Source of the DNA: Alphaproteobacteria bacterium
Lineage (GTDB): Bacteria > Pseudomonadota > Alphaproteobacteria > Rs-D84
Direction: 5' to 3'
Assembly (NCBI GenBank): GCA_015062545.1
Contig: SUUL01000001.1
Location: 96,375 to 160,374, forward strand
Length of the DNA: 64,000 nucleotides
Each line of letters opens with the position of its first letter. Position 1 is the first letter of the stretch. Below are positions 19,741-20,365 of the stretch, piece by piece. The translations under genes were made by a program, and so were the position numbers. The notes under the pieces were generated by a model, which worked only from the letters and a program-made list of their open reading frames with translations, did not search any database and had not been told where the DNA came from.

Positions 19741-19953
19741 TTATCTTTGTTTTTCTTCGCGGGTTTTGCGCAGGCATGCGCGACATTGTTTTGCTTTGTC
19801 TTTGCCGTATTGTTCATCGATAGCAACGAGAAACGCATGAATACAGTATTTTGCCCCAACACATCTATTATGATTACATAACATTTTACACTGACATCCG
19901 ATGTTATATTCGTTGTTAATCACATCTTTTTGTTTGAATATACAAAACATCAT
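19741..19953 (-). CDS. small cysteine-rich protein 1 (70 aa), paralog of the next ORF
   Basis: 8 Cys (C..CxC...C....C.....C...CxxC), basic tail. 3-nt gap to truA, 1-nt gap to ORF2; co-oriented with the def-fmt-truA operon. Confidence 0.45.
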   Translation of the reverse strand: MMFCIFKQKDVINNEYNIGCQCKMLCNHNRCVGAKYCIHAFLVAIDEQYGKDKAKQCRACLRKTREEKQR

Positions 19954-19954
19954 A

Positions 19955-20173
19955 CTACCTTTGGGCCTGTCGGGATTTTGTCATACGTAAACATCCACGA
20001 CATTTCTTTTTGTGTTCTTCGGCAATGTCACGCTGTAATGTAAATGCTGCATATTCAGGACATGTAAAGCAATTACAACGAACCTGCATGTCACAACCAC
20101 AGCAACGACAATCTAGGTTATATTCGCTGACGACAACATGCTGCTGTTTATATTTACAAAAACGTTCTGTCAT
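19955..20173 (-). CDS. small cysteine-rich protein 2 (72 aa)
   Basis: 10 Cys (CRCCGCD..CNCFTC..CRGC). Shares the FC.FKQ..V..EYN..C.C and ..EEHKKKCR.CLR.T blocks with ORF1. SD-like AAGG upstream. Confidence 0.45.
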   Translation of the reverse strand: MTERFCKYKQQHVVVSEYNLDCRCCGCDMQVRCNCFTCPEYAAFTLQRDIAEEHKKKCRGCLRMTKSRQAQR

Positions 20174-20182
20174 TTGTTACCT

Positions 20183-20365
20183 TTATCTGCTGTGCTGATG
20201 TGCCATTCTCTTGAAGTGATTGCACCAGCCATATTGCGGAACACGCTGTTCCCCGAATACCGCGCGTATAAACCAATGTCTATCTAAACAGAAACATTTT
20301 GTATCGAATTTTGCACATTTTTCACATACCTGACAGCAATCACTTTGTGTTGTATTTGTATTCAT
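20183..20365 (-). CDS. small cysteine-rich protein 3 (60 aa)
   Basis: 7 Cys (DCCQVCEKC..CFC). Starts 6 nt after the fmt stop with an AAGGAAA SD. Confidence 0.4.
   Translation of the reverse strand: MNTNTTQSDCCQVCEKCAKFDTKCFCLDRHWFIRAVFGEQRVPQYGWCNHFKRMAHQHSR

What the first reader, a model, noticed from the sequence alone, without database searches (positions are those of the whole stretch)
19741..20365. Three tandem small Cys-rich ORFs inserted between fmt and truA in the def-fmt-truA operon
ORFs of 60, 72 and 70 aa sit head-to-tail on the minus strand. The gaps are 6, 9, 1 and 3 nt between fmt, ORF3, ORF2, ORF1 and truA, and each ORF has an SD-like sequence upstream.

ORF1 and ORF2 are clear paralogs: they share an ..FC.FKQ..V..EYN..C.C.. 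block, a central Cys cluster and a ..KKCR.CLR.T basic tail. ORF2 has 10 Cys in 72 residues with metallothionein-like CxCC, CxC and CxxC spacing. ORF3 has a CCxxCxxC...CxC cluster.

Such genes are not part of the canonical def-fmt(-truA) neighbourhood. They could be metal-binding or zinc-ribbon mini-proteins, possibly relevant to the Fe/Zn enzyme Def, or they could be peptide precursors.
Basis: partly seen in the sequence, partly recalled or inferred. Interest (0 to 1): 0.6.

Follow-up and report, generated by a model that had tools for sequence, protein, structure and literature searches.

The report
Variable islet of cysteine-rich mini-genes
Three real, conserved genes for small cysteine-rich (probably metal-binding) proteins of two previously undescribed families sit inside the def-fmt-truA operon of a tiny-genome gut alphaproteobacterium (Candidatus Enterousia group), at a spot where relatives carry anything from zero to four such genes; what they do is still unknown.

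Summary
ORF3 (20183-20365), ORF2 (19955-20173) and ORF1 (19741-19953) lie head-to-tail on the minus strand between fmt and truA, each with a Shine-Dalgarno-like site.

They are genes, not chance ORFs. ORF1 and ORF2 belong to family A, with 8 Cys, 7 at fixed positions. ORF3 belongs to an unrelated family B with the motif CxxC-x11-C-x21-C-x2-F. Among 71 distinct fmt-truA junctions from relatives (order Rs-D84, Candidatus Enterousia, genomes under 1 Mbp), 53 carry A and/or B genes, 13 carry nothing and 5 carry other ORFs. There are 13 different A/B arrangements.

The Cys ligands are 91-100% conserved. dN/dS is 0.1-0.2, while dN is 2-8 times that of def, fmt and truA. Recombination mosaics cut through the islet.

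Neither family matches Pfam, NCBIfam, PHROGs, PADLOC, PDB sequences or phage records. The confident family A model (pLDDT 90) has no fold neighbour in PDB or BFVD.

Best reading: accessory cytoplasmic metal-binding mini-proteins, probably zinc-binding, co-expressed with the operon. A link to Def and a peptide-precursor role are unsupported.

The parts
21700..21727 (-). Promoter-like site (TTGTCA-16-TGnTATGAT) just upstream of def. It is the candidate promoter for the whole def-fmt-ORF3-ORF2-ORF1-truA transcript.
   Evidence: The consensus scan gave 10 of 12 matches with an extended -10 TG. No terminator-like site was found on the minus strand between def and truA. This is a pattern match only, not proof of function.
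21175..21678 (-). def, peptide deformylase, 167 aa. First gene of the operon.
   Evidence: PF01327, E=1.6e-40. The metal-ligand motifs EGCLS and QHETDH are visible in the translation.
20372..21178 (-). fmt, methionyl-tRNA formyltransferase, a compact 268-aa form. It overlaps the def stop by 4 nt.
   Evidence: PF00551 and PF02911. TIGR00460 scores 189 bits, just under its 201.5 cut-off. Most relatives have 267-270 aa, with or without the islet.
20183..20365 (-). ORF3, a family B mini-protein of 60 aa, pI 8.8. The invariant positions are C11, C14, C26 and C48, with F51 in 90% of sequences, giving the motif CxxC-x11-C-x21-C-x2-F.
   Evidence: C11, C14, C26 and C48 are 100% conserved across 39 distinct homologues. 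dN/dS against L004 is 0.20. The SD is AAGGA.
19955..20173 (-). ORF2, a family A mini-protein of 72 aa with 10 Cys, pI 8.9. The conserved Cys are C6, C22, C24, C27, C38, C58 and C61, plus one Cys whose position wanders (C33 in ORF2).
   Evidence: dN/dS against L003 is 0.10, from 26 synonymous and 26 non-synonymous differences. The AlphaFold2 model has pLDDT 89.9.
19741..19953 (-). ORF1, a family A mini-protein of 70 aa with 8 Cys, pI 9.1. It is a paralogue of ORF2. Its stop lies 3 nt before the truA ATG.
   Evidence: Its orthologue is P0003 in L017 (58% identity, dN/dS about 0.20).
19006..19737 (-). truA, tRNA pseudouridine(38-40) synthase, 243 aa. Last gene of the operon, convergent with comEC.
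   Evidence: PF01416, E=1.4e-38.
19640..19960 (.). Recombination tract of about 320 nt, covering ORF1 and the first ~100 nt of truA. It is 98-100% identical to locus L003, whose flanks are only about 80% identical to the window.
   Evidence: Sliding-window identities. There are 0 synonymous and 3 non-synonymous differences in ORF1, against dS of about 0.8-1.6 in the neighbouring genes.

Best explanation
The three ORFs are real protein-coding genes for two lineage-specific families of small, soluble, mildly basic, cytoplasmic cysteine-rich proteins.
- Family A (ORF1, ORF2) has eight Cys, enough for two Cys4 sites.
- Family B (ORF3) has four invariant Cys, enough for one Cys4 site.

Proposed expression:
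1. The genes are transcribed with def, fmt and truA from the promoter upstream of def.
2. Each is translated from its own Shine-Dalgarno site, with 1-9 nt spacing that permits translational coupling.

Proposed function:
- The proteins fold around bound metal, most likely Zn2+, though an Fe-S cluster is not excluded for B.
- They act as small binding or adaptor modules for a nucleic acid or protein partner.
- They are accessory, not core. The locus is a tandemly duplicating, fusing, deleting and recombining islet confined to the Rs-D84 / Candidatus Enterousia group of genome-reduced gut alphaproteobacteria.

Shown: gene reality, the two families, purifying selection on the Cys scaffold, fast evolution elsewhere in the proteins, copy-number variation, recombination, and lack of any known relative.

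Inferred: metal binding, operon co-expression, cytoplasmic location, and the adaptor role.
For: Gene reality:
- Intact homologues sit at the same junction in 53 of 71 distinct junction sequences from independent assemblies.
- dN/dS is 0.10 for ORF2, 0.20 for ORF3 and 0.20 for ORF1 in comparisons where dS is not saturated.
- Length differences between orthologues are in-frame.
- SD-like sites are conserved upstream of the small genes.

Metal-ligand pattern:
- In 54 distinct family A sequences, C22, C24 and C27 are 98% conserved and C6, C38, C58 and C61 are 91-93%. The exceptions are truncated or frameshifted entries.
- In 39 distinct family B sequences, C11, C14, C26 and C48 are 100% conserved and F51 is 90%.
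- The rest of each protein diverges 2-8 times faster (dN) than def, fmt and truA.

Ordered fold:
- The family A AlphaFold2 model has pLDDT 89.9 and pTM 0.72. It shows an N-terminal beta-hairpin, Cys-rich loops and two helices.

Cytoplasmic location:
- There is no hydrophobic N-terminal or transmembrane stretch. The maximum 15-residue Kyte-Doolittle mean is 0.6-1.7.

Operon:
- There is a promoter-like site before def and no minus-strand terminator inside the operon.
- GC and GC3 resemble those of the neighbours, so there is no sign of foreign DNA.

Accessory status and variability:
- There are 13 different A/B arrangements, plus 13 junctions with nothing and 5 with other ORFs.
- Empty junctions are scattered within the clade on an Fmt+TruA NJ tree.
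- One relative carries a frameshifted copy (L004) of a gene that is intact in another (L017).
- Mosaic recombination cuts through the islet.

Lineage restriction:
- An exhaustive HMMER profile search of 1.84 billion representative proteins found only 8 true family A clusters.
- Every A cluster whose contig could be read lies at an fmt-truA junction.
Against: - There is no direct evidence of transcription, translation or metal content.
- The family B model is poor (pLDDT 49.6).
- The Cys4 spacing of B, with its flanking aromatics, could also hold an Fe-S cluster.
- No partner or activity can be named.
- Loss in many relatives shows the proteins are dispensable at this site. This weakens any claim of a role tied to Def, Fmt or TruA.
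- All comparison genomes are metagenome assemblies, so single frameshifts or mosaics could be assembly errors. The mosaic, however, needs two switches, and the same allele types are seen in independent assemblies.
Confidence: 0.6

Rival explanations
1. Conflict or interaction module. The islet encodes fast-evolving factors used in antagonistic or partner-directed interactions. Candidates are anti-phage or anti-defence proteins, immunity proteins, or effectors delivered to the partner cell of these obligate symbionts or parasites. Diversity at the locus would be maintained by duplication and inter-lineage recombination.
For: - dN is 2-8 times that of the neighbouring genes, while the scaffold Cys stay fixed.
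- Copy number runs from 0 to 4, with many arrangements and scattered losses.
- ORF3's relationships are incongruent with its flanks. Window versus L003 is 43% identical for ORF3 against 91% for Fmt, while window versus L004 is 75% against 87%.
- Recombination mosaics fall exactly at islet genes.
- The host lineage is predicted to be partner-dependent (PMC12306168).
Against: - No PADLOC, PHROG or phage match.
- No signal peptide, and no secretion apparatus or partner gene in the operon.
- No pair tested gave dN/dS above 1.
- The genes sit in a housekeeping operon rather than a mobile or defence island.
Confidence: 0.15
2. Translation-linked accessory factors. The mini-proteins bind tRNA, rRNA or one of Def, Fmt and TruA, and tune initiator-tRNA formylation, deformylation or pseudouridylation. 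They might compensate for the compact 268-aa Fmt of this lineage.
For: - The genes are embedded in def-fmt-...-truA and may be translationally coupled to it.
- They are mildly basic (pI 8.8-9.1), and family A has a long Lys/Arg-rich C-terminal helix.
- Fmt is about 45 aa shorter than typical and scores just under the TIGR00460 cut-off.
Against: - Relatives with no islet have a compact Fmt of 261-270 aa and a similarly conserved Def and TruA. Presence of the islet therefore does not track any change in the enzymes.
- The mini-proteins evolve several times faster than their supposed partners.
- A and B occur alone, together and in either order, which does not fit a fixed subunit.
Confidence: 0.12
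3. Metal buffer or chaperone of metallothionein type. The proteins would store or deliver Zn, Fe or Cu, possibly for the metalloenzyme Def.
For: - Cys makes up 11-14% of residues, against 1.2% in long ORFs of the window.
- The genes are adjacent to def, whose product needs Fe2+ or Zn2+ (established knowledge).
Against: - Only specific Cys positions are conserved, and the family A model is an ordered fold with a hairpin and helices, unlike metallothioneins.
- No hit to any Pfam or NCBIfam family, which include bacterial metallothionein models.
- Def is unchanged in lineages without the islet.
Confidence: 0.07
4. Ribosomally synthesised peptide (RiPP) precursors, processed by a radical-SAM enzyme.
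For: - The small products are Cys-rich.
- A radical-SAM protein at 24595..25665(+) has a weak YydG-epimerase-like match (E=3e-6, 26.9 bits against a cut-off of 300).
Against: - That enzyme is 4.2 kb away on the other strand, behind rmuC, infC, a uracil-DNA glycosylase gene and an OmpA-like gene.
- It has no SPASM domain hit.
- It is absent from the 4-6 kb of flanking DNA held for loci L009, L011 and L017.
- There is no transporter or protease, no leader/core organisation, and conservation spans the whole protein.
Confidence: 0.03
5. Not genes. The ORFs would be chance ORFs, remnants of a disrupted known gene, or a conserved non-coding element.
For: - Cys-rich short ORFs are common by chance in this window.
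- NCBI and ENA gene callers skipped ORF3 in several assemblies.
- ORF1 is nearly identical at the nucleotide level to L003.
Against: - Intact ORFs with the same Cys pattern persist across lineages whose synonymous sites are saturated.
- dN/dS is 0.1-0.2.
- No Rfam match and no hit to any known protein family in any ORF.
- The ORF1 identity with L003 is explained by a recombination tract that runs on into truA.
Confidence: 0.03

Closest known systems
Zinc-finger micro-proteins and Cys-rich zinc-binding small proteins of archaea (Haloferax volcanii, Methanosarcina mazei), as summarised in PMC13525628
   Same: - Stand-alone proteins under 100 aa whose only strongly conserved features are Cys ligands.
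- Cytoplasmic.
- Often overlooked by annotation.
- Function usually regulatory or adaptor, and hard to predict.
   Different: - No sequence relationship.
- To my knowledge those proteins typically carry paired C(P)XCG knuckles. Family A has C-x15-CxC-x2/3-C...C...C-x~19-CxxC, and family B has CxxC-x11-C-x21-CxxF.
- The proteins here are bacterial and confined to one order.
- They are clustered in one hypervariable operon-internal islet.
Zinc-ribbon ribosomal proteins (bL31, bL32, bL33, bL36, uS14, bS18)
   Same: Small, basic, Cys4-type metal sites, encoded in translation-related operons.
   Different: - No Pfam or NCBIfam match to any of them.
- Much faster evolution than would be expected of ribosomal proteins (my expectation), and frequent loss.
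- pI of about 9, below the value above 10 that I recall as typical of ribosomal proteins.
Bacterial metallothioneins (SmtA/BmtA type)
   Same: Small, Cys-rich and cytoplasmic, with CxC and CxxC motifs.
   Different: - No profile match.
- Predicted ordered secondary structure.
- Only 4 or 8 specific Cys are conserved, rather than high overall Cys density.
Rubredoxin- or HiPIP-like single-cluster Cys4 proteins (comparison for family B only)
   Same: About 60 aa with four Cys, one CxxC pair plus two distant Cys, and aromatic residues next to the ligands.
   Different: - No profile hit.
- No signal peptide, whereas HiPIPs are periplasmic (my knowledge).
- The hosts lack respiratory chains (PMC12306168).
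- The family B model is too poor to compare folds.
SCIFF and other Cys-rich RiPP precursors
   Same: Short Cys-rich gene products.
   Different: - No adjacent radical-SAM/SPASM maturase.
- No leader.
- The whole protein is conserved and predicted to fold.

Membership tests
Any curated family (Pfam-A, NCBIfam, PHROGs, PADLOC) | Profile HMM match at or above the curated or a significant threshold | tested here: not met
   The best hits have E of 0.19 or worse for the window ORFs. No family is hit by more than one member of either alignment.
[not shown]
   - PDB profile searches: best E=1 for A and 0.054 for B.
- Foldseek against PDB gave 0 hits.
- Foldseek against BFVD gave best E=5.4.
- Family A model only. 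The family B model is too poor to search.
New family A (defined here) | About 65-95 aa. N-terminal [FY]C-x-[YF]K...V..NE[YF]N, then C-x-C-x2/3-C, two further Cys, and a C-terminal C-x2-C in a basic helix. Located at the fmt-truA junction. | tested here: met
   ORF2 and ORF1 align over their full length with P0001-P0004 and P0006-P0010 and with 54 distinct sequences.
New family B (defined here) | About 60-70 aa per domain, with CxxC-x11-C-x21-C-x2-F and G38/V42 (ORF3 numbering). Occurs single or as a tandem BB fusion. | tested here: met
   ORF3 aligns with 39 distinct sequences with all four Cys invariant. It is unrelated to family A by hhalign (probability 0.2%).
Zinc-binding structural mini-proteins ('zinc fingers' in the broad sense) | Stoichiometric Zn2+ bound tetrahedrally by the conserved Cys | not testable with these tools
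   Only the ligand pattern is seen. ICP-MS or spectroscopy is needed.
Metallothionein | High Cys density forming metal-thiolate clusters, little regular secondary structure, and a family profile match | tested here: not met
   No profile hit. The model has a hairpin and two helices at pLDDT 90. Cys makes up 11-14% of residues, with only 7-8 positions conserved.
RiPP precursor | Co-located maturase and/or transporter, and a leader-core architecture | tested here: not met
   The operon holds only def, fmt and truA. The nearest radical-SAM gene is 4.2 kb away on the opposite strand and is absent from the 4-6 kb flanks held for L009, L011 and L017.
def-fmt-truA operon membership (co-transcription) | Same strand, no internal terminator, short intergenic gaps, a shared promoter, and transcript evidence | tested here: inconclusive
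   Gaps are 1-9 nt, there is no minus-strand terminator-like site, and a promoter-like site lies before def. There are no RNA data.

The most novel reading that the evidence does not exclude
The fmt-truA junction of Rs-D84 / Enterousia bacteria is a dedicated diversity-generating islet. Two orphan metal-binding mini-protein families with no fold neighbour in the libraries searched are duplicated, fused, deleted and swapped between lineages by homologous recombination. The reason would be that they mediate an antagonistic or partner-specific interaction, such as phage, defence or host-cell targeting. Placement inside an essential operon would guarantee their expression in a genome under 1 Mbp.
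Probability: 0.15. Interest if true: 0.7.

Novelty: new variant of a known kind. Interest (0 to 1): 0.42.

Why it matters
Rs-D84 / Enterousia bacteria have genomes under 1 Mbp and are thought to depend on partner cells, so genes they retain are likely to matter.

This work found two uncharacterised mini-protein families that are:
- kept under purifying selection on a Cys scaffold;
- otherwise evolving fast;
- varying from 0 to 4 copies at one fixed operon position;
- exchanged by recombination.

If they are metal-dependent adaptors, they add two sequence families, and for family A a fold, that current databases lack. They also show how much of the small proteome of uncultured gut bacteria automatic annotation misses. 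ORF3-type genes were not called in several assemblies.

If they turn out to be interaction or conflict factors, they would be a handle on the biology of an uncultured, widespread gut lineage.

They are short enough for chemical synthesis or simple expression, so metal binding and partners are directly testable.

Tried and rejected
Searches that found nothing:
- Pfam, NCBIfam, PHROGs and PADLOC scans of the window ORFs and of divergent relatives. Nothing was significant, and there was no recurrent weak hit.
- afdb50 was not available.
- tblastn of ORF2 and ORF3 against 50,697 phage records gave no match.
- Rfam on the operon gave no hit.
- A search for extra A or B copies in the 64-kb window and in all flanks found none.

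Ideas tested and rejected:
- ORF3 is a distant member of family A. Rejected by hhalign, probability 0.2%.
- The ORFs are the broken 3' end of fmt. Rejected because the Fmt C-terminus (LQIQPSGKKPMDWKSF...) is intact and conserved.
- The near-identity of ORF1 to L003 indicates an RNA or DNA element. Rejected because the identical tract runs about 100 nt into truA and L003 is a mosaic of two lineages.
- Compact Fmt correlates with the islet. Rejected because islet-free relatives have the same compact Fmt.

Failed prediction:
- The family B structure prediction gave pLDDT 49.6 and was not used.
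Full report
OBSERVATION

The minus strand between fmt (20372..21178) and truA (19006..19737) holds exactly the three ORFs described:
- ORF3, 20183..20365, 60 aa, 7 Cys.
- ORF2, 19955..20173, 72 aa, 10 Cys.
- ORF1, 19741..19953, 70 aa, 8 Cys.

The gaps are 6, 9, 1 and 3 nt. Each ATG is preceded by AAGG or AAGGA at SD distance. ORF1 and ORF2 are paralogues, with 30% identity and E=1e-8 for the pair.

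Cys-richness by itself is not remarkable. 19 of the 153 ORFs of 55-80 aa in the window have 7 or more Cys, and the 16 other than ORF1-3 lie in alternative frames of real genes. The case for real genes therefore rests on comparative evidence.

ORGANISM AND OPERON

The neighbours are def, fmt, truA, rmuC, infC, comEC, pnp and parAB. The closest named genome locus is a Candidatus Enterousia MAG, with Fmt 87% identical. Enterousia belongs to Alphaproteobacteria, in GTDB order Rs-D84. All members of that order have genomes under about 1 Mbp and are predicted to be obligate symbionts or parasites of the animal gut (PMC12306168).

A promoter-like site lies just upstream of def (21727..21700). No terminator-like site is found on the minus strand between def and truA. 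The likely transcript is therefore def-fmt-ORF3-ORF2-ORF1-truA. This is inferred, as there are no RNA data. GC and GC3 of the small genes match their neighbours. Rfam finds nothing in the region.

THE ORFS ARE GENES AND FORM TWO FAMILIES

A word-index search found two relatives of ORF2 and none of ORF3. The contigs of the ORF2 relatives nevertheless all carry fmt-ORF3-ORF2-ORF1-truA.

For family A, an exhaustive HMMER profile search of 1.84 billion representatives with the ORF1/ORF2 alignment returned only eight true clusters. The ninth hit, P0005, is a repetitive eukaryote-like artefact. Every cluster whose contig could be read lies between fmt and truA.

For family B, a profile of ORF3-like sequences collected from those loci found 13 proteins, several of them tandem two-domain fusions. 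hhalign finds no relationship between A and B.

Selection was measured against the more distant loci:

| Comparison | dN/dS |
|---|---|
| ORF2, window vs L003 | 0.10 (26 synonymous, 26 non-synonymous) |
| ORF3, window vs L004 | 0.20 |
| ORF1, window vs L017 | 0.20 |
| def, fmt, truA | 0.04-0.08 |

Both families are thus under purifying selection, although their dN is 2-8 times that of the housekeeping neighbours.

CENSUS OF THE JUNCTION

A metagenome scan with an Fmt alignment gave 80 more loci, with Fmt 51-89% identical. After locating fmt and truA and classifying the gap ORFs with iterated HMMs, 71 distinct junction sequences remained:

| Arrangement | Junctions |
|---|---|
| none (fmt abuts truA) | 13 |
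| B | 12 |
| A | 10 |
| B-A-A | 7 |
| A-A | 7 |
| B-A | 5 |
| other ORFs | 5 |
| B-B | 3 |
| A-B | 2 |
| B-A-A-A | 2 |
| BB-A, BB-A-A, B-B-B, BB, A-A-A | 1 each |

The B-A-A row includes L004, whose single frameshifted A gene the classifier scored as two fragments; it is really B-A.

Several of the 'other' ORFs carry B-like Cys motifs.

Conservation of the ligands:
- Across 54 distinct family A sequences, C22, C24 and C27 are 98% conserved and C6, C38, C58 and C61 are 91-93%. The exceptions are truncated or frameshifted entries. An eighth Cys is present but shifts position.
- Across 39 distinct family B sequences, C11, C14, C26 and C48 are 100% conserved and F51 is 90%.

On a rough NJ tree of Fmt+TruA (no bootstrap), the deepest branches lack A and B, and empty junctions are scattered inside the main clade. 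This suggests a single origin followed by repeated loss, duplication and fusion.

One MAG, L004, has a frameshifted A gene that is intact in a close relative, L017. This could be real decay or an assembly error.

No other A or B copy exists in the 64-kb window or in any fetched flank.

RECOMBINATION

Window versus L003 shows 0 synonymous and 3 non-synonymous differences in ORF1, although dS of the flanking genes is about 0.8-1.6. The near-identical tract spans window positions ~19640-19960, that is ORF1 plus about 100 nt of truA.

A three-way comparison shows that L003 is a mosaic:
- Through def, fmt and the B gene it follows the L098 lineage. The B gene is 98-100% identical.
- Over ORF1 and the 5' end of truA it follows the window lineage.
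- It then returns to the L098 lineage.

ORF3 relationships are also incongruent with the flanks. Window versus L003 is 43% identical for ORF3 against 91% for Fmt. Window versus L004 is 75% against 87%. The islet is therefore exchanged between lineages.

WHAT THE PROTEINS LOOK LIKE

Both families are soluble, mildly basic (pI 8.8-9.1) and lack signal or membrane segments.

The family A model, built on ORF2 with 11 sequences, is confident, with pLDDT 89.9 and pTM 0.72. It has a beta-hairpin (residues 3-6 and 11-14), Cys-rich loops (15-38) and helices 39-46 and 48-70. The last CxxC sits in the long basic helix.
- Foldseek finds nothing in PDB or BFVD.

The family B model failed (pLDDT 49.6).

Eight conserved Cys in A are enough for two Cys4 sites, and four in B for one. 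Zn2+ is the most economical guess. An Fe-S cluster in B cannot be excluded. Metal binding is inferred, not shown.

WHAT IT IS NOT
- It matches no known family in Pfam, NCBIfam, PHROGs or PADLOC, in PDB sequences or in phage genomes.
- It is not a broken fmt, because the Fmt C-terminus is intact.
- It is unlikely to be a RiPP system. The only radical-SAM gene nearby (24595..25665) has a marginal YydG-like match, lacks a SPASM hit, is 4.2 kb away on the other strand, and is absent from the 4-6 kb flanks held for L009, L011 and L017.
- It is not tied to Def, Fmt or TruA in any detectable way. Relatives with and without the islet have enzymes of the same size and conservation.

BEST EXPLANATION AND RIVALS

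Most likely (about 0.6), these are accessory cytoplasmic metal-binding mini-proteins of two orphan families, probably zinc-binding. They are co-expressed with the operon and act as small binding or adaptor modules.

The pattern of fast evolution, copy-number change and recombination also fits a conflict or partner-interaction role (about 0.15). This is the most interesting reading not excluded.

The remaining rivals rank lower:
- a translation-linked accessory role, about 0.12;
- a metallothionein-like buffer, about 0.07;
- RiPP precursors, about 0.03;
- non-genes, about 0.03.

NOVELTY AND VERDICT

The closest known kind is the broad class of Cys-rich zinc-binding small proteins, such as the archaeal zinc-finger micro-proteins (PMC13525628). 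There is no sequence or fold membership in any described family. I rate this a new variant of a known kind.

Interest is moderate. The locus is real, previously undescribed and evolutionarily lively, but its function is unknown and no long-standing question hinges on it.

LIMITATIONS
- All comparison sequences are metagenome assemblies.
- dS is saturated for many pairs.
- The tree is a simple NJ on two proteins.
- AlphaFold models omit metals, and their coordinates could not be inspected.
- No expression data were available.

Noticed in passing
window 19640-19960; L003:1766-2100; L098: There is a clear three-way recombination mosaic. L003 follows the L098 lineage in def, fmt and the B gene. 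It is 98-100% identical to the window over ORF1 and the first ~100 nt of truA, and then reverts to the L098 lineage. This indicates homologous exchange between Enterousia lineages. comEC and rmuC flank the operon.
   Followed up: yes
window 24595-25665 (+): A 356-aa radical-SAM protein with a CxxxCxxC motif (CWYNCPHC). Its only other hit is weak, to the YydG family peptide epimerase (E=3e-6, 26.9 bits against a cut-off of 300). It has no SPASM hit. This is an uncharacterised radical-SAM enzyme retained in a genome under 1 Mbp.
   Followed up: partly
window 16307-17068 (+): A 253-aa protein with an N-terminal hydrophobic, signal-like segment and many Cys. It has a weak Ephrin_rec_like repeat hit (E=1.8e-5). 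It is probably a secreted or surface Cys-rich repeat protein of unknown role and is unrelated to families A and B.
   Followed up: partly
L004:6110-6331: The single family A gene of this Candidatus Enterousia MAG is frameshifted by a roughly 10-nt deletion after the CxC motif. The orthologue in L017 (P0003, 74 aa) is intact. This is either pseudogenisation or an assembly error.
   Followed up: yes
window 19741-19749, 19955-19963; all A and B genes in the loci: 51 of 54 family A proteins and 37 of 39 family B proteins end in Arg or Lys, often as ...QR. The terminal codons (CAA AGG or CAA AGA) form the AAGG/AAGA Shine-Dalgarno-like site of the next gene. The conserved C-terminal residue may therefore partly reflect dual coding for translational coupling.
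   Followed up: partly
window 20372-21178 (-): Fmt is unusually compact at 268 aa. It matches only part of the Formyl_trans_C profile and scores 189 bits, below the TIGR00460 cut-off of 201.5. Most Rs-D84-like loci have 267-270 aa, whereas two deep outgroup loci (L082, L089) have about 300 aa.
   Followed up: partly
L031:3309-3979; L034:1933-2328; L082:1401-1739; L091:757-1173: Some relatives carry larger ORFs of 100-138 aa at the same fmt-truA junction. L031, L034 and L091 show CxxC...C...C-x2-[WFH] motifs reminiscent of family B, but fall below the HMM threshold, and L082 is less clear. They may be divergent or extended family B relatives.
   Followed up: no
L018/L098:3090-3311; L009:5778-5996; L036, L037, L044, L062, L067: There is a divergent sub-branch of family A, called A' in my notes. 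It has an N-terminal CGLHG/CxxYC instead of FCKYK and often ends in ...YNG[KR]. It was recovered only after HMM iteration and is present as an extra gene in some close relatives of the window genome.
   Followed up: partly
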